From Eledone cirrhosa (lineage: Eukaryota), in NCBI GenBank assembly GCA_964016885.1, contig OZ024743.1, forward strand, positions 21,948,001 to 22,012,000: DNA of 64,000 nt. Reading direction: 5' to 3'. The notes below the pieces were generated by a model, which was not told where the DNA came from, made no database searches, and worked only from the letters and a program-made list of their open reading frames with translations. Of this stretch, positions 19,750 to 64,000 are shown piece by piece; position 1 is the stretch's first letter, and each line of letters opens with the position of its first letter. The position numbers and the translations under genes are program-made.

Positions 19750-22700
19750 TTCTACCTTTAATTTACAGACACATACTCAGAGTAGGCCCATTCACTCGGG
19801 CCATTCTTGCCTCTCTCACCCATCTTTCAACAAAATGCTGGGAAGAAAACACTTCCCTCTCTACCCTGATTTTCCTTTTCAAATGAAATTTGAAAAGTTA
19901 ATCAGGGCATCACCGAAGAGGTAAGTGCTCGTCTTCAGCCCTTTCAAACGTGTCCACCATACTATCTCTTTCGCTATAGCCACCAGACAGATAAAAACTG
20001 CCTGCCCTTCCCAGCTAAAGGAAGAGGGCGGGGCAATCCTCACGATGGACTCAGCTGATAGCTGGATCCATCCTACACGCGACAGCAGGTGTTCGACATA
20101 AACCCAGAAGTCAGCAATGCTCGGACACTGGACGAGTGCGTGCAGGATGGTTTCGTCGCCCTGCGCGCATCTCGGACATGCCCGGCTAACGGCACCTCCA
20201 TGCCTGTAGAGTTTATCCCGAACTGGCAAAGCTCCTCGGTAGCACTGCCAGGCCAGAGATTTCTGGAAGTTGTCCATAGGCCCCGGCCCGAAAGTTCTTC
20301 CGAAAAAATTGGCTAGTTGATTTTTGTCGACGCCTAGAGTTTCCCCAAGTACGTCGTCGCTCTTCCCCTCCACTAATCCTCTATAGAACGCCAAGGTGGA
20401 GTTTCCACCGATCACATTGCCCGATTGGTCGAGGGCTGTAAGCGCCTGAAGACATTCCAGTCTCCAAGCGCTCCCTCTCGGTCTTCGCTTGACCCAGTAC
20501 TGCAGCTCCGTCAAGGAGACGAGCTGGGGAAAGACGCGTCTAGCAAACGACGACCACACCTGATCACCGTCGAGGAAGAGGTAGAGATGTCGTAGCCTGA
20601 GCGCGTGTCTGCGCATCATCAGCGACGGCATGGCCAGTCCTCCACGTAGCGGGTGTTGACAGCAGAAGGACCGCCTGACCATCGGAGCGCGTCCCTTCCA
20701 CAAAAAGCGAAAGAGCAAACGCTCCAGCGCAGTCAGGTGGGGCTTAGGACAAAGTACGACGGTCAGGCGGTAGTAGATGACGGACGCGATGTACGCGTTA
20801 GCCACCTCCGCTCGACCTTTCAGGGATAGCTTCCTCTCCGCCCATTTCTGGGTGAGAGAAGCCACCCTGCTCGTCACCTCCTCCCAGTTGTTGTCCGTCT
20901 GGAGGTCCGGAGCGAACCAGACCCCTAGCAATTTAACCGACTGACGACGCTGTTGGACGGCATGGACCTGCCTCTACAGGTGCCAAGCTTCAGGTCCACT
21001 GACTTTTCCTGGTTGATCATTGCTCCTGTCACCGCTTCGTATTCTCTTAGTATAGTGCCGATCTCCTCGATGTGTTTGGCATTCCACACCACTACGGTGA
21101 CATCGTCCGCATATGCTGACACGGATCTTCCGCATCCTAGTTCGCGCGGGTCCCTCCTCAACGTCTCCAGTTTGTGCAGTAATGGCTCGAGAGACAATAC
21201 GTACAAGAGGGACGAGAGGGGACATCCTTGGCGGACCGAGCGCATGATGTTGAACGGTTCCGAAAGGTGACCGTTCACTCACACCACAGAGCAGATGTCG
21301 CTGTGCATGGCAGCGATCCAGCCTCTGAAGACGGGCCCAAAGCCAGGCCGCCCTCAGGACTGCCGCTAGGTAACGATGGTCGACCCTATCGATAGCTTTC
21401 GACTGATCTAAATTGATCAAGGACCCACCCGTGCCAGGTTCACTAGCTACCCTCTCCACGATGTATCGCATGAGGTGGAAGTTATCGTGGATGGATCTGT
21501 CGGGAATGGCGCATGTCTGCGCCTCTCCCACCAGACCACCAACGATAAGCGCCAACCTCTTTTCTAGCACCTTGGCCAAAATCTTGAACTCTGTGTTTAG
21601 CAGAGTTATGGGCCTGAAATTATCTATGTTATCCCCCTTGTTCGGATCTTTTCTCAGCAGCGCCACTGCTCCTCGGCTCACAGAGCTGGGAATTCTCCCG
21701 TTCTGTTGCCAGTTGCAATAGACGTCCGCCAAGAGGCCTCCGAACAAGTCTGGCATCTGTACGTAAAGTTCATAGGGCAGACCATCCAAACCAGGCGATT
21801 TACCCCTTGTGCAACCAGTCATTGCCTCCTGTACTTCAGCGGCTGTTATCGGCTTTTCGCAACACTCCGCCTCAGTGGCCGAGAGCCGCGGCAGTCCGTC
21901 GAGGGAGACACTAAAATCAATCCCTCGATCCGACCCGCCACTGCCCCCGAACAGCTGAGCAAAGTGTCGCTGAAAAGGTTCACACATTTGCCCGGGATCG
22001 AGTAGCATGAGCCCGTCGTGGTCCACCAAAGACCGGATCGTGGCTTTCTTGCCACGACGCGCCTGCGCCACTCGGGCCCATTGAACGGCTTTCATCCCCT
22101 CGTGTCTGAGAGCACGCACCCAAGCTCTGACAACGCAGCCTTCGTACTTTGCATTGAAGAATTGGTCAAGGGCCAATTTCGCCGCAAGTACGTCGGTCGC
22201 GATGCCTTTGCTAAGCGCCTCGTCAAATTTTCTAACTAGTTCTCCCTCTGCTCTATTTTTCTATATAGCTAAGCCTTACTAAACCTAATGGATTCTATTC
22301 TAATCGCTCGTTTCAGAGCAAACCTGAGCAAACGCCTGAGCAGGTTGGTGAGGCTCTTGCATCCTCATCCCCTATCCGCTAATCCCACACAGTTCCAGCG
22401 TGCATCTATATCCCGTTCCAGTCGCCCACTAATACTAAAGAGCGGGACGTTCCAAGAAAGGTCTCCAGACGCCGGAAGAAATCAGGCCGCCCTGCTCCTC
22501 TCGGCGCATAGACTGCCGCTAGCCTGAAATCTTGCCCGTCTCCGCTGGTCACGTCCAGCACCACCAACTTACCCTCTGGGTCCAGGAAGATGGCCTGTAT
22601 GGCGAGATCCAAACCTCTCCGAAAAAGCACAGCAACTCCTCCCCCCGATCCAGGACGGCTGGGAGATGCGTACACATCGTAGCCGCCGAAGATCGGTGCG

Positions 22701-22843
22701 AAGGCCCGTGCTTCGGAGATTCTGGTCTCGCTGATGGCCACTACATCTATGTTTAGTGATCTGAGGTCGTTGAGCAGGTCGCCCTTCTTCCATGACGATC
22801 CCAAGCCACGCGCATTTATGCTGCCTATTCTGAGTAAGGTCAT
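19750..22843 (-). pseudogene. ORF2 (APE endonuclease-reverse transcriptase-zf-RVT), frameshifted
   Basis: ORFs 22406..22843, 20974..22176, 20925..21278 and 19879..20931. Confidence 0.9.
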
Positions 22844-22877
22844 GTTGAAATGGAGTGGAAAAGATGGGAAAGACCAC

Positions 22878-24762
22878 TTACCTTACTTCTCGTAGACGAA
22901 GGATGGTTTCTCCATCCTTTTCACTGCTTGTGGCCGCCTCCGGAAGGATGTCCTTATAAATCCTCCTGGAGAGTGCTTGTCGGAAGTCTCCGATGTCTTT
23001 GAGGAATTTTTGTTTTAGTGTCGTGTAAGTTTTCTGTGTGATGCGAGTGATTTGTATGTGTGTAGGTGGTGCGAACTTTTGGGTTGTTGTGTAGTCCTTT
23101 TCTGTGATGCTGGTGTTGTGTTGGATGTAGTGTAATAATTGGTTGTTGTCAAATTTATTGCTGTGTAGTGTGTATCGTTTTGGTTCTTTTATTTTGTTTG
23201 CGTTTGTTGTGCGTTTGTTTCTGTTTCGCTTTTTGGTGACTTTTGTGGTGTAGGTGATGGTGGTGTTGGGGTTAATGATGGTGGTGGTGTTGGTGTTTGT
23301 GGTGATGGGGTTGGTGATGCTGGTGTGGATGGTGGCATAGCTGTCCTAACTTTTTTGTTTGATAGTTTGTTTCCTTCTGTATTTTGTTTTTGGAGGGGGA
23401 AGGAAGGGGATTTTTTCTATTTTGGCTTCTTTTTTTTTTCTTTTTTTTCTGATACCGTTTCCCACTCCTCGTCGTCACAATCTGTCTCCAGTTTCGATAG
23501 GTCGGGAGTGGAAAATCCTCCACAGGCGTTGGTTTTCGTTGTGGCGTGGTGGATGGTGTAGGCGCTGGTGCTAGTTCTGGCGCGTTGAGTGGTGGTGGTG
23601 TTGGTTTTGCTACTGTTGCTGCTAAAGCTGCTTCTGTTGTTGCTGCAATTTCTGCTGCTGGTGGTGTTGATGGTTGAGTCACTGGGGTGGGTAAGAGAGG
23701 TGGCCTCAACCTTTTAGCCTGAGGGCAGAAAGCCCTTAGGTGGGTTCCTTCACCACAAACGACACACCTAGGTCTTCTACCCTCGACTATTACAGTGAGG
23801 TGGCTGCCGTCAGTGAGGTCTATTACCTCTGGGATCTCCTCAATGCTTTTTGGTCCGCTTGGATCAGGAGCTCCATCCCAGATCCGGACCAGTCTCCTGT
23901 TTTTCTTTTGCTATTTCTATTATTTTGGTGTTGGCCTCGATGACGGCGAGGACGACAGCCATTAGCCAGGGAATTTCGATGGCCGGTGGAATGTGGGTCA
24001 CCCTGATCTTTACGAGTCTCGGGCCACAATAGCTTGGGACGAGTGTGAAGTCGTCGCTTCTTAATGGGGTCATGGAGTGCTCTCTGGCCTCCTGTGGTGT
24101 TCCAAAGAACACGTCCACGGTTCCATATTTCTGGCCACGTCTGATGTGGGTTTTTTTTGCTTTTTGGATTTGGGACTCGGATGCCCGTTCCACTCGGCGC
24201 GCTTTTATGTTAATCGTCCGATAAGACACGGTGCATAGGCGCCGATGCTCCATTTTATTTGGTGGGGGGGGGGGGGTGATTCTGTACCCATCTTTCTTTA
24301 CCATTCTCTTGGCTTCATCTAGTTCCTCCTGAGTTACCTGGGTTGTTTCGCATTTTTTAGCTGCTTTGGCAAATGACACGATGTTGTTATTTTCATTGTT
24401 GGTGTTGCTGTTGTTGTTATTGTTAGTTTTGTTATTGTTATTTTTAGTTTCAGTTGTGGTGGTGGTGTCAGTGGTGTTCGGTGTGGAAGAGTCCATTCTG
24501 GGTGAATCCATTTCGATGTCTCGAGATAATTTATTTTTTTCTTTTGTTTCTGTTGTCGCTGTGGTTGTGTGTGTGGGGGGGGGGGGTCGGTTTCAACACC
24601 TGCAGTCATTGGTAATGGCGGGAAATGAATGTCTGCATGAGACAAATTTAAATTATTGCTACTGCTTATATTTTTAGTGTTGGCAAACGTAGTAATATTT
24701 ACAATGGTGGTGTCGATGTGAGGTGTTAGTTTGTGAGGGAGGTGTGGCTGTGAGTCGTCCAT
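22878..24762 (-). pseudogene. ORF1 (gag-like, CCHC knuckle, Pro/Thr-rich), frameshifted
   Basis: ORFs 24334..24762, 23864..24511 and 23272..23709; homologous to 63108..63836, which carries CVVCGEGTHLRAFC. Confidence 0.75.
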
Positions 24763-24870
24763 GATTTTTTCAAAGAAATTTTTTGTTTGATAATTATAAA
24801 AGTTTAAATTTTGGGCTCAAGGCCCCAATCTTTTTGAGTGTCCTTTTCCGAAAGAAAATTCAGAACAGTG

Positions 24871-27800
24871 GGGGTTTACAATAAGGTCGAGTAAAAGTGC
24901 ACAATGGCAAGACTAATTTAACAATGAAAATATAAAAATATAAAATAAACTATGCATAAATATAACAAAATAAATTCCCCGATAGGGGGTGGACGACCCT
25001 GGGGTGATTCGGGTACCCCACCAATCCTGAACCACCCTGCGCTTCTAGGGCACCCAGGAGAGCACCCCTCTCCTCAAGTTAGCCAGCCTATAGGCGCATG
25101 GTCAGAGTAGGTCCATTCACACGAGCCATTCTCGCCACATTCACCCATCTTTTAGCAAATGTACTGGGGGGAAGCACTTCTCTCTCCACCCTCACCCTCC
25201 TTTCCAGGTGAAACTTGAAGAAGTTGATGAGGGATTGGCCGAAGAGAAAAGTATCTATCTTTAGTCCTTTCAACCTGGTCCACCATATAATCTCTTTCGC
25301 AACTGCCACCAGACAGAGGAAAATTTCCTGCTCTTCCTGACCTAAGGAAGGTGGCGGCTCGATCTCCACTATGGACTCGGCCTTTAGCCGGATTCGTTCC
25401 ACACGCGACAGTAGCTGTTCGACATAACTCCACAAGTCAGTAATGCACGGACATTGGACAAGTGCGTGCAGAACGGTTTCGTCGTTCTGTGCGCATCTTG
25501 GGCAGGTCCGTCTGACAGCACTTCCGTGCCTGTAGAGTTTATCCCGAACCGGCAGTGCCCCCCGGCAGCACTGCCAAGCGAGGGATTTCTGGAAATTGTC
25601 CATCGTCCCCGGCTCAAAAGGCCTCCGGTACAGACTGGTCAGTTCGACTTCGTCGAGGCCTAAAGCTTCTCCGAGTGCGTCATCGCACTTGCCCACCACT
25701 AATCTTCTATAGAACTCGAGAGTGGAAGTTCCACTGGTCGCATTGCCAGTTTGGTAGAGGGCAGTGAGTGCCTGGCAACATTCCAGGTGCCAGTCACCCA
25801 GTCTCGGTCTCTTCTTGACCCAGGACTGCAGCTCAGTCAAAGAAATGAGCTGCGGAAAGGCCCGTCTGATAAACCGCGACCATACCTGTTCACCATTGAG
25901 GCAGAATATCTGGAGATGTCGCAGCCTCAACGCATGTCTGCGCATCATTAGCCACGGCATGCCCAGCCCTCCACGTAGAGTGTGCTGGTAGCAAATGGAC
26001 CTCCTCACCAACGGAACTTGTCCCCTCCACAAGAATTTGAAGCGGAGCCGTTCCAGCTTGACGAGGCGCGGACGGGGGCAAGGCACGACGGTTAGGCAGT
26101 AGTAGATGACGGACGCCATGTACGCATTCGCCACCTCCGCGCGACCTTTCAGTGATAGCTTCCTCCCAGCCCATTTTTGGGTGAGACTGGCTACTCTGCT
26201 CGTTACCTCGTCCCAATTCTTTTCCACCTGGAGGTCTGGTCCGAACCAAACCCCGAGCAACTTTACCGGTCCGTCCGTCCAGCGCCCCACGACGCTGTTG
26301 GACGGCATGGGCTTGCCTCTCCAGGTTCCGAGCTGCAAGCCCACCGACTTTTCCGGGTTGAGTTTGGCTCCTGTCAACCTTTCATATTCCTTCAATAAGG
26401 TGCCGACCACCTCGATTTCTGAGGTGTTCGACACCATCACGGTGATGTCGTCCGCATAAGCCGACACCGCCTTTCCACGTCCCGGTTCGAGCGGGATGCC
26501 CTGCAACCGCTCCAGCTTCCGCAGTAAAGGCTCGAGAGTCAATACGTACAGAAGGGAAGAGAGAGGGCACCCTTGACGGACCAATCGGGAGAGCTGAAAT
26601 GGTTCCGAGAGGTGGCCATTAACCTTGACCACCGAGCGTGTGCCGCTGTGCATTGCAACGATCCAGCTTCTAAAGACAGGGCCGAAGCCAGCTGCTTTGA
26701 GGACAAACTCCAGATACCGATGGTCGACCCTATCGAATGCTTTCGATTGATCTAAATTGATCAGTGCCCCACCGAAGCCAGGTTTACACCCTACCCTCTC
26801 TATGATGTATCGCATGAGGTGGAGATTGTCGTGTATGGACCTGGCTGGGATTGCGCAAGTTTGCGCCTCCCCAACCAAATCCTCGACGACAAGCGCCAAT
26901 CTCTTTGCTAACACCTTGGCCAAAATCTTAAACTCTGTGTTGAGCAGAGTTATGGGCCTGAAGTTGTCTAATGTATCCCTCTTGTTCTCGTCTTTCCTTA
27001 TCAGCGTCACCACTCCCCTGCTCACAGAACTGGGAATACTCCCATTCTGCTGCTAGTTGCAGTAGAGTGCTTCGAGGAGTTCGGAGAACAAGCCTGGCAT
27101 ATTTACGTAAAGCTCGTAGGGCAGGCCATCCAAACCGGGTGACTTGCGCCTCATGCAGCCGACAAGGGCGTCCTGAATTTCGGCTGAAGTAATCGGCCTT
27201 TCGCAGCGCTCAGCGTCGACCGTCGAGATGCACGGCAAGCCGTCAAGGTAGGGACTGAAATCCGCTACCCTCTCTGACTCGCCACTCTCCCTGAACAACC
27301 GAGAAAAGTGCTGGCGAAAGGCCTCACACATCCGCTTGGAATCGCTTATCTCGTGTCCGTCTCAGTCCGCCAAAGACCGAATTGTGGTTTTATTACCACG
27401 CTGCGCCTCCGCCACGCGGGCCCATCGAACAGCTTTAGTTCCCTCGTTTCTCAGCGCACGCGCCTTAGCTCTGACAATACAACCTTCGTGTTTGGCATTG
27501 AAGAATTGGTCTAATGCCATTCTCGCCGCTAGCACGTCAGTTGCGATGCCACTACAAATAGCCTCGTCTAACTTATCTACCAGCTCACCCTCCTTTCTAT
27601 TTTTCTCTAACTCTAGTCCTTTGTTGAACTCTATCGAAGTTACTCTAATCTCTCTTTTGAGAGCCCCCACCATCTGTTGTTGATGATCCCTCCTGTCAAC
27701 TTTTGCTTAACTAAATTGTTGACTCGGTCCCTGTAAGCCTTACGTGCCGGAAATGACATGTTCAGCTTCCAGTAACCCGGTCCTAACCTACGCGTTTTAT

Positions 27801-29155
27801 TTAGGTCGACCGTACAGATCACAAATTTGTGATCTGAATAGGCGACCGTTTTAAAAAGTGGGCAGCCCACACTATTTCTATCTATTTTCCTAATGAAGAT
27901 CCTGTCTATATACGATCTAGATGACCCCATTCGGTTGGTCCATGTCCATACTGGCACATTGGGGAAATCTAGTCGATACCTGTCAGACAGTTGGAACTGG
28001 CTGAGTAGGTGCTTGAGGCTTTTGCACCCCCCGCTCCTATCGGCTACTCCCACACAATCCCAGCGTGCGTCTAAGATGCCATTCCAGTCCCCCGCTAACA
28101 GTGAAGGGCGAGACGTACCCAGAAAGGTCTCCAGGCGCCTAAAGAAGTCAGGTCGTCCGGCCCCTGTAGGGGCGTAGACGGCCAGCAGTCTAAAGGCACC
28201 ACCTTCGCTACTGCTCACATCCAAGACCACCAACTTACCGTCCGGGTCCCGGAAGATCGACCTTACCTCGAGATCCAGTCCTTTCCTAAACAGCACTGCC
28301 ACCCCACCCCCATTCCCCGCCTGCTAACAGATGCGAAGATCTGATAGTCGTCGAAAATGGGGGCTAGTGCGCGCGTGTCGGAAATTCTGGTCTCGCTTAC
28401 GGCAATCACATCCATTTCCAGCGACCGGAGGTCGTTGAGCAGGCGACCCTGCTTCCAGGGTGACCCCAGGCCGCGAACATTTAAACTTCCTACTCTTAAT
28501 ATGGCCATATTGGTAAGCTAAGAGAGAGAGAGGGAAGGTTTACTTACCTCCCGGGTCTTGTGAAGGTCGGGTGGTTCGACCTCCATGGTTGGTGGGGTTT
28601 CTTTTGGGAACCCCTTTAAAAGTCTTGATCTGGGTTTCACATTCGGGGTTCCCACGTCTTGAGGAAAGCTCTCTCGAATTTCTTTGAAGCAATTGAGTGA
28701 CATTCGGACCAGAAGCAAATCTTCTGGCACGCAAAATGTACTCATTTCAAAAATCTCCCCCTCTGTTTGAATGTCCTTGCTTCGCGCTAAGAGGGCCATC
28801 AGTTTATCGTTGGCCCTTCTGACAAGCACGAAGTTTTTAACATTTTGTTGGTGTGGTTTTATTTGTTTTCGTTTTGGTGAAGGTGGTAGCGATGATTTTG
28901 GTGGTGTTGTTTCGGGTATGTCTATGTTTGTTGTAGGTGTGGTGTCTGCAATTTCAGGTATTTGTGTGTTTATTTGTACTTGTGTTTGTTTAGGTTGTTT
29001 GCGTTTCGGGGATTGTGGAGGTGGTGTCGATGTTGCTGTTGGTGATGATGTTATTGGGGAAGTGTTTGCGTTAGTGGTGTCTGTATTTTTTGTTGTGTGT
29101 GTTTTTGTGTTTTGTTGGGGCTTTTTTTTGGTGAGTTTTCTCTGTTTTTTTGCAC
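24871..29155 (-). mobile_element. Tx1/L1-clade LINE, second family (copy B), 5'-truncated in ORF1
   Basis: ORF2 starts 28508 (MAILRVGSLNVRGL); pieces 27640..28302, 27362..27673, 27053..27331 and 25088..27025 (YADD, CPRC); 5' end abuts (AAT)n at 29156-29195. Confidence 0.92.
25088..28508 (-). pseudogene. ORF2 (APE-RT-zf) of copy B, with frameshifts and a nonsense codon
   Basis: The 645 aa RT/C-terminal frame is open; TAG at ~27053 replaces the W of YCNWQQNG. Confidence 0.9.
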
Positions 29156-29195
<40 letters not shown>

Positions 29196-29379
29196 GGGGT
29201 ACTGAACATCACAGAAAACCGCACAGATATCACACTACAAAAACGGTGTTTTGCTAGAGTGATAGAGATCAACGTACCACCCCGCGAAAACTAAAAGGGA
29301 TGGAAATAGACGAAGGGTACAGGGAATTAGGTCCACCTACAACAAACCCGGATGGAAACGTGCATGGAACTCAAAGTGT

Positions 29380-35885: not shown

Positions 35886-35940
35886 ATAATAGTATTATTA
35901 GCTCAAAGAAAAATAGACAATTTCCTTCCGAGCTCAAATG

Positions 35941-36597
<657 letters not shown>

Positions 36598-37185: not shown

Positions 37186-37407
37186 GGAAGTTCAGCATAA
37201 TCGAAGCTCTGGCTGCATCTAAGCTAACGAATGCAATCGGAATGTACAGCTAAGCACTCAATAAGTTATTTTACCTTAGAGTAATAACATCACGTTTAGA
37301 CAGCTTGGCAAATTGAAGATTGCGACCGGTAAGCCAGCTGCAAGGACCAAAGCAACGAGAAAACCGACTCAGGATAATTTGACACACACATAAAACTCAC
37401 CTCCTAC

Positions 37408-37470
<63 letters not shown>

Positions 37471-37475
<5 letters not shown>

Positions 37476-38007
37476 TCGGCTCAGTATTTTTATACTTGGA
37501 GCTTAATAGTTACAGGGTTCCAATTGGGGTTTTAACTCTAATTTTCATATATATTTCTGCTCCCTCACAAGTTGAGCTTATTAAGTTGTGTGTGTTGGAC
37601 TGTTATTTCTATTCAATACGCGCTTACCACGTTTGACTAGCGGCGCACGAGGTGACAAATTCATCTTTCTGTGTGAACGTTGGCAAATAGTGTTTGTTGC
37701 ATTTAATCAGATTCTCTCGCTGATGATGCCCAAGATTATCTGTTACAAACACACTCAGGGCGAAACAGATTAGGGATAATCTGTCCGAGAGATATAATGG
37801 TTATTGAGGCGGTTTGTATAATAATATATTTTTATTTTATCATTCTGTCTGCTTCTTGGTTAAATATTTCAAACAAATGTGGTTTTTCAACCCTTGTAAT
37901 TTTAGACACACGGTTTACTGTGTTTCTTACTATATATTAATCGGCTCAGTATTTTTATACTTGGAGCTTAATAGTTACAGGGTTCTAATTGGGGTTTTAA
38001 CTCTAAT

Positions 38008-38015
<8 letters not shown>
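37471..38015 (+). mobile_element. Hammerhead element with ~80 bp direct terminal repeats (period 465) in (TA)n
   Basis: ATTAATCGGCTCAG...CTAATTTTCATAT at 37471 and 37936. Confidence 0.85.
37713..37792 (+). ncRNA. Type I hammerhead ribozyme, well formed
   Basis: TCTCTCG-CTGATGA-T-GCCC...GGGC-GAAACAGATTA-GGGA-TAATCTGTC-CGAGAGA; 8 bp stem III with GNRA loop; GUC site. Confidence 0.9.
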
Positions 38016-38066
<51 letters not shown>

Positions 38067-38069
<3 letters not shown>

Positions 38070-39402
38070 GATATTAAATAAATGGAAACTATATTTATAA
38101 AACCATATTTATTTCATTATATATATTTCAGGGATATCATATTAACAATATGTTATGCCTTCTTCAGACAAAATACAATATAGACAGTTTTATAGATAAA
38201 TAGATTTGACATACCGTTCAACATCGACTTGTATTTGAAAAAGTTGATTTGGCAGTGAAAAATTGTAAACAGAAAGAAAGAAAGAAAGAAAGAAAGAAGG
38301 AAAGAAAACGAAGAAAAAGAAGAAAAAAGAAGAAATGCATGCAACAAAATAGAGAGATAGAAAGATAGATAAAGAGAAGAACTTCATGTAAAGAAACAGA
38401 GAGAGATATATAGAGAGAGGAAATAGATAGAGATAGACATATATAGAGAAAAAAGTAGGTAGTTGAACATCCGTTGAAAAGACGTATCAATGATACATTT
38501 ATTTATTTATTTATTTATTTAGCTCTAGTATTAATGTAAGGGAGATATATGTTGTTAGGAAAGAAACCAGCCGTTATATAGAGAGAAAAATGAAAAGTAA
38601 CCAGACATAGGTGAGGCAGAATTTAAAAACCCTATGTTTTAATGTAGAAATATTAGTTCGTATAAAACCAGGCACTATAATGTAAATACTAGTATACCTG
38701 AATGAGACACGTATCTATAATGTGTGAAAAGTAATGATCTTATGTCTAGTTTTAAAAATTCATATGTTTATATAACTACAAACATCGATGTGAATTTACG
38801 TGGTCAACTCTGCAAACCCCTATTTCACACGGAGAACATTCTCATTGTGCTATAAAAATTTAAGTATACATATATGTGTATATATACACATATATATAGA
38901 GTCTATATTAATTTTAACAATACTATTCTTGTCTTTACTCTACATGATTATCTATCAAGCAGAAATAGAGAACAGATTTCAATATATTAATAAAAAATAA
39001 AAAATATCAGAAACAAAAACAAAAATAATAATAATAATAATAATAAACAAATAAATAAAATAGAAAACTAAAAAATATTACATATTAAAAATAAAAATAT
39101 TAAACATATTAAAAATATTAAAATAATAAAAATAAGATGCCACGCAAATCGACCACAAAGATCAACCCTTCAAAATTAATTGACAATATATTGCCAAGTT
39201 CATTATAAGCATCAGAGTCGAAAACAGATAAAGCTAAAAATTATTTACCAAATCGCGTCTAGCAGACATCATTTCAAAAGTTTAGGATGCCCATTTGGTC
39301 TACATATGTTCTTATATTTAATATAGAAGTTTATCTAGTGTAACGTTTATTCGATATATTTGGAGCATCAACTTTTAGGGTAGTTTTCTTTCTTTCTTTC
39401 CT

Positions 39403-39433
<31 letters not shown>

Positions 39434-39725
39434 GTTTACAATTTTTCACTGCCAAATCAACTTTTTCAAATACAAGTCGATGTTGAACGGTATGTCAAAT
39501 CTATTTATCTATAAAACTGTCTATATTGTATTTTGTCTGAAGAAGGCATAACATATTGTTAATATGATATCCCTGAAATATATATAATGAAATAAATATG
39601 GTTTTATAAATATAGTTTCCATTTATTTAATATCGTAAATATACTCCAAATACTTGTTGAGTGCTTTTATATCAGTTATAAATATTTACTAGTTGTAACC
39701 CAACAATTTAAATATAACTTTCCAT
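38067..39725 (+). mobile_element. Hammerhead element with ~240 bp inverted arms (~38067-38305/~39385-39637)
   Basis: Mirror arms, each including the hammerhead; TA tracts at both ends. Confidence 0.8.
39529..39594 (+). ncRNA. AT-rich type I hammerhead motif (mirror 38110-38175 on minus)
   Basis: TATTTTGT-CTGAAGA-AGG...CCT-GAAAT-ATAT-ATA-ATGAAATA; AUA site. Confidence 0.6.
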
Positions 39726-39905
39726 GTATATATATATATATAAGGATTTAAATGGATACAGTTCAGTAATAATATTCATATTACAACACTACGGATAATA
39801 CTATATATATATATATAATGTAGGAGGTGAGTTTTATTGTAGTACAATAAAGCAATGCAGATATCGGATAAGTAGAACTCTACAGTTTGTAGGACTGGAG
39901 TATAA

Positions 39906-40177
39906 ATAATATATAAGATCAAGAGATGGTTAAAAGAGTTCCATGTATTTTATTATGCGCATTTCAAAAACAAATATCATCATGCGATGATATTTGCGTT
40001 TTCGTCAGATAAAATAGGGAGACATGATATGAAGGTTAAAAAACACTTGTGAATAGTGCAGTTTTAAATCAACATATTTATTATCTGACGAAAACGCAAA
40101 TGTCATCGCATGATGATATTTGTTTTTGAAATGCGCATAATAAAATACATGGAACTCTTTTAACCATCGTTTGATCT

Positions 40178-40187
<10 letters not shown>
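39906..40187. mobile_element. Fold-back hammerhead element, ~107 bp inverted arms (39906-40012/40081-40187)
   Basis: Mirror arms, each with a hammerhead; followed by a long (TA)n. Confidence 0.85.
39946..40016 (-). ncRNA. Type I hammerhead motif (mirror 40081-40143 on +)
   Basis: TATTTTAT-CTGACGA-AAACGCAAATATCATC-GCAT-GATGATATTTGTTTTT-GAAAT-GCGC-ATA-ATAAAATA. Confidence 0.8.
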
Positions 40188-40210
<23 letters not shown>

Positions 40211-58925: not shown

Positions 58926-61900
58926 TAATAATAATAATAATGCTTTCTTTATTAACCACAAGGGTTTACATAAAGTAGACATTAAGGACAGTACAGGACA
59001 ATACAGGACGGTACAAATGGGCATTTATGTGTGTAAAAAAAAACAGAGGATGTAATAAAAAAAATAACAATGAAAAATTCCCCAATAGGGGGGAGACTTC
59101 CGAGGGACATTTGTGGAGAAAGCCCATTAAAAAGCCACAGTGACCCTGACCACCAGGGAAAGTGCCCTCTCCCAGTTTCCACCTTTAATTTACAGACAGA
59201 TACTCAGAGAAGGCCCATTCACACGGGCCATACTTGCTTCTGTCACCCATCTTTCAACAAAATGCTGGGAAGAGAGCACTTCTCTCTCTACCCTGATTTT
59301 CCTTTTCAAATGAAATTTGAAAAAGTCAATCAGGGTAAGTCAAAGAGGTAAGTGTTCGTCTTCAGCCCTTTCAAACGTGTCCACCATACTATCTCTTTCG
59401 CCATGGCCACCAGACAGATAAAAAACTGCCTGCCCTTCCCGGCTAAAGGAAGAGGGTGGGGCAATCCTCACGATGGACTCAGCTGATAGCCGGATCCGTC
59501 CTACACGTGACAGCAGGTGTTCGACATAAACCCACAAGTCAGCAATGCTCGGACACTGGACGAGTTCGTGCAGGAGGGTTTCGTCGCCCTGCGCGCATCT
59601 CGGACATGCCCGGCTGACGGCACCTCCATGCCTGTAGAGTTTATCCCGAACTGGCAAAGCTCCTCGGTAGCACTGCCAGGCCAGGTATTTCTGGAAGTTG
59701 TCCATATGCCCGGCCCGAAAGTCCTTCCGAAGAGATTGGCTAGTTGATTTTCGTCGACGCCTAGAGTTTCTCCAAGTACGTCGTAGCTCTTCCCCTCCAC
59801 TAATCCTCTATAGAACGCCAAGGTGAAGTTTCCACCGATCACATTGCCCGATTGGTTGAGGGCTGTGAGCGCCTGAAGACATTCTAGTCTCCAAGCTCTC
59901 CCTCTCGGTCTTCGCTTGACCTAGGACTGCAGCTCCGTCAAGGAGACGAGCTGGGGAAATACGTGTCTAGCAAACGGCGACAACACCTGATCACCGTCGA
60001 GGAAGAGGTGGAGCTGTCGTAGCCTGAGCGCGTGTCTGTGCATCATCAGCCACGGCATGCCCAGCCCTCCACGTAGCGGGTGTTGACAGCAGATGGACCG
60101 CTTGACCATCGGAGCACGTCCCTTCCACAAAAAGCGAAAGAGCAAACGCTCCAGCGCAGTCAGGCGGGGCTTAGGACAAGGTACGACGATCAGGCGGTAG
60201 TAGATGACGGACGCGATGTACGCGTTAGCCACCTCCGCTCGACCTTTCAGGGATAGCTTCCTCTCCGCCCATTTCTGGGTGAGAGAAGCCACCCTGCTCG
60301 TCACCTCGTCCCAATTTTTGTCCGTCTGGAGGTCCGGACCGAACCAGACACCTAGCAATTTAATCGGTCTGTCCGTCCAGCGCCCGACGACGCTGTTGGA
60401 CGGCATGGACCTGCCTCTCCAGGTGCCGAGCTGCAGGCCCACTGACTTTTCCTGGTTGATCATTGCTCCTGTCACCGCTTCGTATTCTCTTAGTGTAGTG
60501 CCGATCTCCTCGATGTGTTTGGCGTTCGACACCACTACGGTGACATCGTCCGCATATGCTGACACGGATCTTCCGCATCCTAGTTCGCGCGGAACCCCCC
60601 TCAACGTCTCCAGTTTGTGCAGTAATGGCTCGAGAGTCAATACGTACAAGAGGGACGAGAGGGAACATCCTTGGCGGACCGAGCGCATGATGTTGAACGG
60701 TTCCGAAAGGTGACCGTTCACTCTCACCACAGAGCAGATCTCGTTGTGCATGGCAGCGATCCAGCCTCTGAAGACGGGCCCAAAGCCAGCTTGCCTCAGG
60801 ACTGCCGCTAGGTAATGATGGTCGACCCTATCGAAAGCTTTCGACTGATCTAAATTGATCAAGGACCCACCCGTGCTAGGTTCCCTAGCTACCCTCTCTA
60901 CGATGTATCGCATGAGGTGGAGGTTGTCGTGGATGGATCTGTCGGGAATGACGCACGTCTGAGCCTCTCCCACCAGACCACCAACGACAAGCGCCAACCT
61001 ATTTGCTAGCACCTTGGCCAAAATCTTGAACTCTGTGTTTAGCAGAGTTATGGGCCTGAAATTATCTATGTTATCCCCCTTGTTCGGATCCTTTCTCAGC
61101 AGCGCCACTGCTCCTCGGCTCACAGAGCTGGGAATTCTCCCGTTCTGTTGCCAGTTGCAGTAGACGTCCGCCAAGAGGCCTCCGAACAAGTCTGGCATCT
61201 GTACGTAAAGTTCATAGGGCAGACCATCCAAACCAGGCGATTTACCCCTTGTGCATCCAGTCATTGCCTCCCGTACTTCAGCGGTTGTTATCGGATTTTC
61301 GCAACACTCCGCCTCAGTGGCCGAGAGCCGCGGCAGTCCGTCGAGGTAGACACTAAAGTCCATCCCTCGATCCGGCCCGCAGCTGCCCCCGAACAGCTGG
61401 GCGAAGTGTCGCTGAAAAGCTTGACACATTTTCCCGGGATCGAGTAGCATGCACCCGTCGTGGTCCACCAAAGACCGGATCGTGGCTTTGTTGCCACGGC
61501 GCGCCTGCGCCACTCGGGCCCATTGAACGGCTTTCATCCCCTCGTGTCTGAGCGCACGCACCCAAGCTCTGACAACGCAGCCTTCGTACTTTGCATTAAA
61601 GAATTGGTCAAGGGCCAATTTCGCCGCAAGTACGTCGGTCGCGATGCCTTTTCTAAGCGCCTCGTCTAATTTTCTAACTAATTCTCCCTCTGCTCTATTT
61701 TTCTCTATTGCTAAAGCCTTACTAAACCTAATGGACTTTATTCTAATTGCTCTTTTCAGAGCAAACCACCACTTGTTGACGATGGCCCCGTAAACGCCCG
61801 CTTAACTAGTTCGCTAATCCGGTCTCTGTAGGCCTTGCGCGCTGGTAAGGACGCGTTTAGCTTCCAGTAGCCGGGTCCTCGTCTATGAAGCCTATCTAAG

Positions 61901-64000
61901 TCAAGCACACAGATCACGAATTTGTGGTCCGTGTAGCTGACTATCTTGAATTGTGGACAGCCTATGCTAGACCTATCTATTTCCCTACAAAATATTCTAT
62001 CTAGATATGATCTAGATGACTCTATGCGATTTGTCCAAGTCCACATTGGCACATTCGGGAAATCCAATCGGTACCTGTCAGACAGTTCAAAACGCCTTAG
62101 CAGGTTGGTGAGACTCTTGCACCTTCCTCCCCTATCCGTTAATAGTCCCGCCGTGCATCTAAGATCCCGTTCCAGTCGCCTACTAACACTAAAGAGCGGG
62201 ACGTTCCAAGAAAGGTCTCCAGACGCCGGAAGAAATCAGGCCGCCCTGCTCCTGTCGGGGCATAGACGGCCACTAGCCTGAAAGCTTGCCTGTCTCCGCT
62301 GGTCACGTCCAGCACCACCAACTTACCTTCTGGGTTCAGGAAGATGGCCCATATGGCGAGATCCAAACCTCTCCGAAAAAGCACAGCAACTCCCCCCCCC
62401 CCCCCCGATCCCGGACGGCTGGGAGATGCGTACACATCGTAGCTGCCGAAGATCGGTGCGAAGGCCCGTGCTTCGGAGATTCTGGTCTCGCTGATGGCCA
62501 CTACATCTATGTTTAGTGACCTGAGGTCGTTGAGCAGGTGGCCCTGCTTCCATGACGATCCCAAGCCACGCGCATTTATGCTGCCTATTCTGAGTGAGGT
62601 CATGTTGAAATGGAGTGGAAAAGATGGGAAAGACCACTTACCTTACTTCTCGTAGAGGAAGGACGGTTTCTCCATCCTTTTCACTGCTTGTGGCCACCTC
62701 AGGAAGGATGTCCTTATAAATACTTCTGGAGAGTGCTTGTCGGAAGTCTCCGATGTCTTTGGGGAATTTTTTGTTTTAGTGTCATGTACGTTTTCTGTGT
62801 GATGCGAGTGATTTGTATGTGTGGAGGTGGTGTGAACTTTTGGGTTGTTGTGTAGTCTTTTTCTGTGATGCTGGTGTTGTGTTGGATGTAGTGTAATAAT
62901 TGGTTGTTGTTCAAATTTAATGCTGTGTAGTGTGTATCGTTTTGGTTGTTTTGTTTTGTTTGTGTTTGTTGTGGGTTTGTTTCTGTTTCGCTTTTTGGTG
63001 ACTTTTGTGGTGTAGGTGATGGTGGTGTTGGGGTTAATGATGGTGATGGTGTTGGTGTTTGGGTTGATGGGGTTGGTGATGCTGGTGTGGATGGTGGCAT
63101 AGTTGTCCTAACTTTTTTTTTGATAGTTTATTTGTTTCCCTCTGTATTTTGTTTTTGGAGGGGGAAGGAAGGGGATTTTTTTCTTTTTTGGTTTCTTTTT
63201 TCTTTTTTTCTTTTTTTCTTTTTTTCTTTTTTTCTTTTTTTCTGATACCGTTTCCCACTCCTCGTCCTCACAATCTGTCTCCAGTTGCGATAGGAGTGGA
63301 AAATCCTCCACAGGCGTTGGTTTTGGTTGTGGTGTGGTGGATTGTGTAGGCGCTGGTGCTAGTTCTGGCACGTCGGGTGGTGGTGGTGTTGGTTTTGCTA
63401 CTGTTGCTGGGGTTGTTGCTCTTACAGTTGCTTCTGTTGTTGCTGCTACAGTTGTTGCTGTCATTTCTGCTGCTGGTGGTGTTGATGGTTGAGTCACAGG
63501 GGTGGGTAAGAGAGGTGGCCTCAACCTTTTAGCCTGAGGGCAGAAAGCCCTTAGGTGGGTTCCTTCACCACAAACGACACACCTAGGCCTTCTGCCCTCG
63601 ACGATTATGGTGAGGTGGCTGCCGTCAGTGAGGTCTATTACCTCTGGGATCTCCTCAATGCTTTTTTGGTCCGCTTGGATCAGGAGCTCCAGCCCAGATC
63701 CGGACCAGTTCTTCTTTTCTTTCGCTATTTCGATTATCTTGGTGTTGGCTTCGATACCGGCGAGGACGGCAGCCATTAGCCAGGGAATTTCGATGGCCGG
63801 TGGAACGTGGGTCACCCTGATCTTCACGAGCCACAATAGCTTGGGACGAGTGTGAAGTCGTCACTTCTTAATGGGGCAATGGAGTGTTCTCTGGCCTCCT
63901 GTGGTGTTTTAAAGAACACGTCCACGGTTCCATATTTCTACCCACGTCAGATGTGTGGGTTTTTTTGCCCACACATGTCCCAAAGCTTTTTGGATTTGGG
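58926..64000 (-). mobile_element. Tx1/L1-clade LINE copy C (same family as copy A), running off the window end
   Basis: ORF2 from 62603, 565 aa RT frame 59921..61618, ORF1 63108..63836 with CCHC knuckle; 3' UTR and (TTA)n end nearly identical to copy A. Confidence 0.92.
59170..62603 (-). pseudogene. ORF2 (APE-RT-zf-RVT) of copy C, frameshifted/nonsense
   Basis: ORFs 62139..62603, 61756..62067, 59921..61618, 59501..59842 and 59340..59705. Confidence 0.9.

What the first reader, a model, noticed from the sequence alone, without database searches (positions are those of the whole stretch)
37471..38015. 1.17-mer of a 465 nt unit with a well-formed hammerhead
Seen: ~80 bp direct repeats 465 nt apart around a single, fully paired hammerhead (7 bp stem I, 8 bp stem III with GGGA tetraloop, GUC site), inserted in (TA)n with no coding remnant. 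Inference: terminal redundancy is expected from reverse transcription more than once round a circle, or from a tandem pseudo-LTR. The stable stem III suggests it could cleave as a monomer, unlike minimal PLE hammerheads. This is the best candidate for bench testing.
Basis: partly seen in the sequence, partly recalled or inferred. Interest (0 to 1): 0.72.

Follow-up and report, generated by a model that had tools for sequence, protein, structure and literature searches.

The report
Penelope-tailed hammerhead retrozyme copy
This is one young copy of an abundant non-coding repeat that carries a hammerhead ribozyme motif and ends at the same two fixed points as Penelope-type jumping genes, so it is likely copied by their enzymes, possibly from an RNA circle, and its 80-base end repeat is likely their ordinary 'tail' rather than proof of a circle.

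Summary
Observation confirmed: a 465-nt unit plus a repeat of its first ~75-80 nt, one fully paired type I hammerhead, set in (TA)n, no coding frame. It is one copy of a young family (500-1,500 first-look candidates per query, five subfamilies). In 131 sampled sites, 187 of 206 arm 3' ends fall at two fixed points (unit end, tail end), 5' ends scatter, and 53 of 64 back-to-back insertions have the tail on one arm, none on both. The adjacent element, the end of an intact Hydra-clade Penelope element, shows the same ~90-nt redundancy, so the '1.17-mer' is the Penelope tail, not circle evidence. No coding version was found: a non-LTR retrozyme. Copying stops equally often either side of the ribozyme cut, which fits a circle or uncleaved multimer; rank-specific sharing between arms argues against a uniform monomer circle in some insertions. 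The ribozyme is predicted blocked by an upstream 8-nt complement, and this single-ribozyme copy cannot release a monomer, so it is a poor bench substrate alone. One insertion fuses a retrozyme arm to an age-matched Hydra arm (single case). The scan reported this kind before on other DNA of this genome.

The parts
37410..37472 (.). (TA)n target, 5' side; merges with the TA motif of the unit junction, so the 5' boundary is uncertain by about 7 nt
37473..37937 (+). One full 465-nt unit (subfamily A; most copies have a 468-nt period), 0.22% from its subfamily majority
37473..37554 (+). Head: first copy of the repeated ~80 nt, ending in the internal AUAUAU motif (distal RT start site, inferred)
37690..37697 (+). 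8-nt segment complementary to loop II (37745-37752); predicted to sequester the ribozyme
37713..37792 (+). Type I hammerhead, stems 7/4/8 bp, GGGA loop III, predicted cut after 37785 (unit position 313)
37905..37937 (+). Hairpin plus TA motif at the unit end: proximal fixed 3' end of the family (85 of 206 arm ends)
37931..37950 (+). Junction TATA followed by an initiator-like TCAGT; putative promoter by resemblance to Adineta Pen2a (PMC3846280), untested
   Evidence: sequence
37938..38011 (+). Tail: second copy of the head; distal fixed 3' end of the family (102 of 206 arm ends)
38012..38068 (.). (TA)n target, 3' side, shared with the neighbouring element
38069..39727 (.). Neighbour and internal control: two-armed 3' end of a coding Hydra-clade Penelope element (tail-less minus arm 39385 to 38069; plus arm 39386-39636 with a ~90-nt tail to 39727; minimal hammerheads at 38167 minus and 39537 plus)

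Best explanation
It is a copy of a non-coding hammerhead repeat family with the two fixed ends of Penelope-like elements (PLEs), likely a non-autonomous retrozyme whose RNA is likely reverse-transcribed at nicked (TA)n by a PLE enzyme. Shown: unit, tail, ribozyme motif, (TA)n target, two fixed 3' ends at internal AU-repeat motifs about 80 nt apart, scattered 5' ends, back-to-back arms with one tail, five subfamilies without an ORF. Inferred: the enzyme starts cDNA at either AU motif (annealing to the nicked TA strand); a start at the distal motif gives the tail; in two-armed insertions each target strand is primed at one of the two motifs. This copy started at the distal motif, ran 545 nt and stopped at the next TA-rich junction by microhomology. 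The template was continuous across the ribozyme site: a re-ligated circle (about 50%) or an uncleaved multimer (about 40%), helped by an upstream segment predicted to keep the ribozyme off. A Hydra-clade PLE is the likeliest helper (about 55%), a Neptune-type PLE next.
For: 187 of 206 arm 3' ends at two sites; 53 of 64 back-to-back insertions tail plus no-tail, 0 tail plus tail, 2 no-tail both, 9 with one end elsewhere. The neighbouring coding Hydra-type element has the same layout, its tail being the first ~90 nt of the next tandem unit; a second Hydra-type family and a Neptune-type family do likewise. Literature: tail on one end and inverted 5'-truncated arms (PMC8557442), tail between two RT start sites (PMC11167929), Hydra elements target (TA)n (PMC8557442 section 11). 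In subfamily E the tail shrinks to 62-64 nt and still ends at the AU motif. No shared coding body upstream of single-arm copies. Units within an insertion share their subfamily haplotype (146 discordant comparisons against 601 expected) and lineage variants occur in both head and tail (345 both, 38 head only, 48 tail only). Stop rate in the second unit is 0.0042 per nt downstream and 0.0044 upstream of the cut; 4 stops at 311-317 against 3.1 expected. Unit fold z = -5.1 as a circle; a real cut-to-cut 468-nt monomer refolds with stem I holding its ends together.
Against: No sequence homology between the unit and the ends of the PLE families sampled, so the helper is not identified. Eight rare variants in 6 of 46 clean two-armed insertions are shared by same-rank units of the two arms and absent from other ranks (p = 0.008), which a uniform monomer circle does not predict; arm-to-arm gene conversion or a mixed multimer would. 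The longest array (5.5 units) shows an ABAB pattern best read as DNA-level duplication after insertion, so array length alone does not prove rolling. Covariation in the ribozyme stems is no higher than shuffles. The sample is the top 40 hits of each search and favours young, long copies.
Confidence: 0.8

Rival explanations
1. Plain 3' ends (pseudo-LTR plus tail) of a coding PLE that the searches missed.
For: Same ends and layout as coding PLEs; only 40 candidates per search were scored out of 505-1541.
Against: 70 of 188 arms run past the head into another unit, never into an ORF; after the distal site the unit continues as non-coding sequence, whereas coding PLEs continue into their ORF; upstream flanks of single-arm copies share no coding body.
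Confidence: 0.07
2. One reading: the redundancy is the overshoot of a reverse transcriptase going more than once round a 465-nt monomer circle.
For: Stops are indifferent to the cut site and repeat unit after unit; head and tail evolve together; long arrays that could act as linear masters are few.
Against: The redundancy length is set by a fixed 3' start and a TA-junction stop, and linear coding PLEs have the same redundancy; same-rank sharing between arms. A circle may exist, but the 1.17-mer is not its evidence.
Confidence: 0.1
3. A satellite-like repeat spread mainly at DNA level (unequal crossover between head and tail, conversion), with the ribozyme a passenger.
For: ABAB array and shared head/tail changes in single loci; weak covariation; Li et al. 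2026 found cleavage in 1 of 9 tested dimers.
Against: Dispersed copies on many contigs with fixed 3' ends, variable 5' ends and inverted arms need RNA-templated insertion; 67 of 96 ribozyme copies are perfect, though copies are young.
Confidence: 0.03

Closest known systems
Metazoan non-LTR retrozymes (Cervera and de la Pena 2020, PMC7229834; Li, Clavereau and Pollet 2026, 10.64898/2026.07.22.740005)
   Same: Non-coding, AT-rich unit of a few hundred nt with a type I hammerhead, found as monomers, dimers and short tandems, highly structured, co-occurring with PLEs; stable helix III with monomer cleavage is described for invertebrate retrozymes (PMC7761336).
   Different: Mostly 1-1.5 units rather than long arrays; 8-bp helix III is longer than the 1-2 bp described for most metazoan type I motifs (PMC4209133); ribozyme predicted blocked by self-pairing, which PMC7229834 reports for plant retrozymes and some mussel ones but not most metazoan ones; the PLE tail and two-arm layout are not described in the parts of these papers read.
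EN+ Penelope-like elements, Hydra and Neptune clades (PMC8557442, PMC3846280, PMC11167929)
   Same: Two fixed 3' ends with an optional tail, inverted 5'-truncated arm, partial tandems, (TA)n target, hammerhead upstream of the 3' end, TATA plus initiator-like motif at the junction.
   Different: No RT or GIY-YIG ORF; full-length rather than minimal hammerhead; tail 62-80 nt against the 30-40 bp in print (coding PLEs of this genome have 70-140 nt tails).
Plant LTR retrozymes (PMC4918200, search listing and description in the papers above)
   Same: Terminal repeats, non-autonomous, ribozyme blocked in the predicted circle.
   Different: Type III ribozyme inside each LTR, PBS/PPT and 4-bp TSD, Gypsy helper; here one type I ribozyme outside the repeat and no PBS/PPT seen.

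Membership tests
Metazoan non-LTR retrozyme | Type I hammerhead in a non-coding unit of about 150-450 (up to ~970) nt | tested here: met
   465-472-nt unit, stems 7/4/8, no ORF
Metazoan non-LTR retrozyme | Tandem copies with a complete hammerhead in at least two consecutive units | tested here: met
   Met by the family (26 of 131 sites; 8 of 86 before the multi-unit query), not by this copy, which is a 'monomer' in the sense of Li et al.
Metazoan non-LTR retrozyme | No LTR, PBS or PPT; GC below 50%; PLEs in the same genome | tested here: met
   Sequence; 10,596 GIY-YIG first-look candidates and long PLE frames
Metazoan non-LTR retrozyme | Self-cleavage in vitro | not testable with these tools
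   Only folding predictions
Metazoan non-LTR retrozyme | Accumulates as circular RNA | not testable with these tools
   No RNA run available for the stretch
Metazoan non-LTR retrozyme | Homology to the pseudo-LTR of an autonomous PLE | tested here: inconclusive
   None found among about 85 PLE loci of roughly ten families held, a small part of the genome's PLEs
Canonical type I hammerhead | Loop I-loop II tertiary contacts | tested here: inconclusive
   By inspection stem I can extend past an internal loop, but loop II is 26 nt and no canonical contact motif (recalled) is evident; not modelled
Autonomous EN+ PLE | ORF with telomerase-like RT and GIY-YIG endonuclease | tested here: not met
Autonomous EN+ PLE | Insertion footprint: optional tail on one end, inverted 5'-truncated arm, partial tandems, microsatellite target | tested here: met
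Plant LTR retrozyme | Type III hammerhead in each LTR, PBS/PPT, 4-bp TSD | tested here: not met
   Single type I motif outside the repeat; a TSD cannot be read in (TA)n

The most novel reading that the evidence does not exclude
A PLE enzyme dimer primes the two strands of a (TA)n break at two different start motifs, one per strand, and can load two different RNAs: at G000:C9:17255058 a tailed retrozyme arm is fused back-to-back, without TA, to a tail-less Hydra-clade arm of the same age. The retrozyme would be a conditional-ribozyme circle riding a Hydra-clade enzyme, its 8-nt blocker protecting the template from cutting, which would name the helper and make the unknown PLE integration step testable with a 468-nt RNA.
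Probability: 0.3. Interest if true: 0.78.

Novelty: new member of a known kind. Interest (0 to 1): 0.5.

Why it matters
That PLEs mobilise animal retrozymes through RNA circles is proposed in the papers read but not shown there, and how PLEs form tails and inverted arms is open. This family supplies genomic footprints with an internal control next door: a strict one-tail rule, copying that ignores the ribozyme site, a predicted off-switch and a candidate Hydra-clade helper with an intact 745-aa frame. It also shows that terminal redundancy of this size is not by itself evidence for a circle.

Tried and rejected
Rfam: no hammerhead match. Pattern search of the genome returned only the window's two copies although other exact copies exist, so it was not used for counting. 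Pile-up of 5' ends at the ribozyme cut: not found. RNA-editing scars (lead from e1-8803865): a raw A>G excess (103 vs 87) vanished when events were counted once and ambiguous columns dropped (41 vs 51, p = 0.46). Idea that both start sites need a UUUA-capped hairpin: rejected, subfamily E lacks the distal hairpin. Purifying selection on the ribozyme: 0 of 27 substitutions between this copy and subfamily E fall in 53 stem/core positions (p = 0.03), but E was found with an exact query covering 35 of those positions, so this is not counted. Heterodimeric circle for the ABAB array: rejected because the outer units break the period. Second retrozyme-Hydra fusion (G000:C1:331180): rejected as a co-insertion, the Hydra arm has its own tail and is 5.2% from its family majority while the retrozyme units differ at 1 of 472; a third (C1:384055) is same-strand and unresolved. 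Simple fold-back as the only source of the second arm: 13 of 46 tail-less arms reach further than the tailed arm. Excess of 5' ends at positions 11-15 (6 vs 1.3) as a transcription start: confounded by TA microhomology and alignment ends. Bacterial promoter scan is irrelevant and at chance level. The covariance model was not used in any result. A check of the blocker across all copies returned no matches through a faulty pattern and was dropped.

Full report
OBSERVATION. The sequence is as described. A repeat of 89 nt (about 75 nt without the TA at its edges) lies at 37466-37554 and 37931-38019, 465 nt apart, with one mismatch, between (TA)n runs. The + strand holds a type I hammerhead, 37713-37792, with stems of 7, 4 and 8 bp, a GGGA loop III and a GUC site cut after 37785; a looser pattern appeared in 0 of 4000 shuffles. 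Rfam does not detect it. There is no coding frame.

FAMILY. The genome (3.0 Gb, animal; other scan notes call it a cephalopod, not checked here) gave 505-1541 first-look candidates for six queries from the unit, of which 40 per query were scored, and 1415 for a four-unit query. I assembled 131 distinct insertion sites after dropping three segmental duplicates and one near-duplicate; the sample favours young and long copies. Four subfamilies within about 6% of this copy and a fifth (E, about 85%, period 467-472) were seen. Full units lie a median 0.9-1.5% from their subfamily majority, this copy 0.22%. Of 96 ribozyme copies in the first 86 sites, 67 were perfect, 19 had an intact core with imperfect stems and 10 were broken.

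ENDS. Of 206 arms, 102 end at the tail end, 85 at the unit end and 19 elsewhere; both fixed ends are internal AU-repeat motifs fused to target (TA)n. Of 64 back-to-back insertions, 53 carry the tail on one arm only, none on both, 2 on neither, and 9 have one end elsewhere; 66 sites are single-armed and one has another layout. 5' ends are scattered, with a spike only at the TA-rich unit junction (13 stops at positions 1-6 against 1.2 expected), where this copy stops. Subfamily E has a 62-64-nt tail and lacks the distal hairpin but ends at the same motif. This is the PLE footprint: partial tandems, an inverted 5'-truncated arm and a tail on one end (PMC8557442, passages; PMC3846280, passages), the tail being the stretch between two internal RT start sites (PMC11167929, parts 1-2 of 4 read).

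INTERNAL CONTROL. The element at 38069-39727, sharing the 3' TA run, is the two-armed end of a coding PLE (2462 candidates). Full copies have a 745-aa frame with RWR, DKT, YRDD, CxCX5C, GIY-YIG-like and CxxC motifs, matching the Hydra clade (PMC8557442 section 11, read whole); Pfam does not recognise it and it aligns weakly with a Neptune-type protein of this genome (E = 9e-8). Its tail is the first ~90 nt of the next tandem unit and sits on one arm only. A second Hydra-type family (tails of about 70 and 140 nt) and a Neptune-type family (about 70 nt) behave alike. An 80-nt terminal redundancy therefore needs no circle.

NO CODING PARENT FOUND. After the distal site the unit continues as non-coding sequence and 70 of 188 arms run on into a further unit. 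Upstream flanks of single-arm copies are (TA)n or unrelated repeats. No similarity above background was found between the unit and about 85 PLE loci held; this is a small part of more than 10,000 GIY-YIG candidates, so the helper is unidentified. The family fits the non-LTR retrozymes (PMC7229834, parts 2-4 of 6 read; 10.64898/2026.07.22.740005, parts 1-3 of 5 read), for which PLE mobilisation is proposed.

RIBOZYME. Excised, the motif folds well (stems 0.9; strict active fold 0.29). With 25-240 nt of native upstream sequence the active fold falls to 0.001 or less, and to 0.04 in the whole 1.17-mer or circle, because 37690-37697 pairs with loop II; holding those 8 nt open restores 0.28. The same holds for one D and two E copies; one B copy is less blocked (0.14) and two C copies with a weakened stem II fold poorly either way. 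The blocking helix is in the consensus fold of 17 units. These predictions ignore tertiary contacts and proteins; the anole PLE ribozyme cleaves only with protein and is dispensable for insertion in vitro (PMC11167929). Covariation is slight: one compensatory pair among 121 and ribozyme stems no better than shuffles (40 of 500). This copy has one ribozyme and cannot yield a monomer; 26 of 131 sites have two or more in tandem, and a real cut-to-cut monomer of 468 nt refolds with its ends held by stem I.

CIRCLE OR MULTIMER. For: the stop rate in the second unit is the same on both sides of the cut (0.0042 and 0.0044 per nt; 4 stops at 311-317 against 3.1 expected), so templates were continuous there; units of one insertion share haplotypes; lineage variants sit in both head and tail (345 both, 38 head only, 48 tail only in 51 sites; indel columns count several times); few long arrays turned up as linear masters. 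Against a uniform monomer circle: 8 rare variants in 6 of 46 clean two-armed insertions are shared by same-rank units of opposite arms, against 9 cross-rank of which 6 come from one array (p = 0.008); conversion between arms could also cause this. One 5.5-unit array is ABAB in its middle and other loci show head-tail exchange, so DNA-level recombination can also rebuild dimers. I put the circle at about even odds.

HELPER LEAD. Of 27 single-arm sites without TA at the 5' junction (one is an assembly gap), two are fused back-to-back to Hydra-type arms; chance gives two or more with P = 0.065. At C9:17255058 the retrozyme arm has the tail, the Hydra arm ends at its tail-less site, and both are 0.9% from their majorities: what a two-RNA, two-strand insertion would leave. 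The other case fails both tests. It is a lead, not a result.

NOVELTY. Six literature searches returned no paper whose listing or read passages describe a cephalopod retrozyme or PLE tails on retrozyme arms; supplements were not opened (those of the bioRxiv preprint are closed) and may list such families. Also read: PMC4209133 parts 1-2 of 4 and passages of PMC7761336. The scan's own notes describe 310-, 422-, 445-, 467/468- and 478-nt families of this kind in the same genome; a look-up by sequence found no look-alike of this unit. I had the two-site, one-tail pattern before reading them. Verdict: a real, new member of a known kind, useful for mechanism; interest 0.5.

Noticed in passing
window 38069-39727; full copies G000:C4:320954500-320964400 (L289) and C1:338246500-338253500 (L291): Young, abundant Hydra-clade PLE with an intact 745-aa frame and ~90-nt tail; missed by Pfam RVT_1 and GIY-YIG. 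Many divergent Hydra-type families (30-55% identity) occur in the flanks held.
   Followed up: partly
window 39901-40192: Fold-back of 112-nt arms with a minimal hammerhead on each strand (40008 minus, 40085 plus, palindromic loop III): short two-armed end of another PLE family.
   Followed up: no
window 10708 (minus) / 10788 (plus) and 31392 (minus): Further minimal hammerhead motifs, the first two as an inverted pair.
   Followed up: no
window 35938-36114 / 36326-36502: 177-nt inverted arms, 98% complementary, ending in (TA)n; no hammerhead found by the scan; probably another two-armed insertion.
   Followed up: no
window 37390-37409 / 39818-39837: A perfect 20-nt inverted repeat plus TA encloses both the finding and the Hydra-type neighbour; origin unexplained.
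   Followed up: no
window 19879-29234 and 59921-63860 (minus strand): Broken LINE-type elements with RVT_1, zf-RVT and exo/endo-phosphatase matches.
   Followed up: partly
L111 (G000:C1:145869300-145877300): Near-complete Neptune-type PLE (938-aa frame) whose pseudo-LTR hammerhead has the U3-A8 core variant.
   Followed up: partly
L255 (G000:C1:42756346-42759530): 5.5-unit arm with two identical alternate units (ABAB), pointing to duplication of a dimer after insertion.
   Followed up: yes
G000:C1:217426148-217661553: The same three-part insertion occurs four times within 240 kb (segmental duplication or assembly repeat).
   Followed up: no
L249 and L263: Units that combine features of subfamily E and of A-D (E-like first hairpin loop with the distal hairpin, or the distal hairpin present in one unit only), suggesting intermediates or recombinants.
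   Followed up: no
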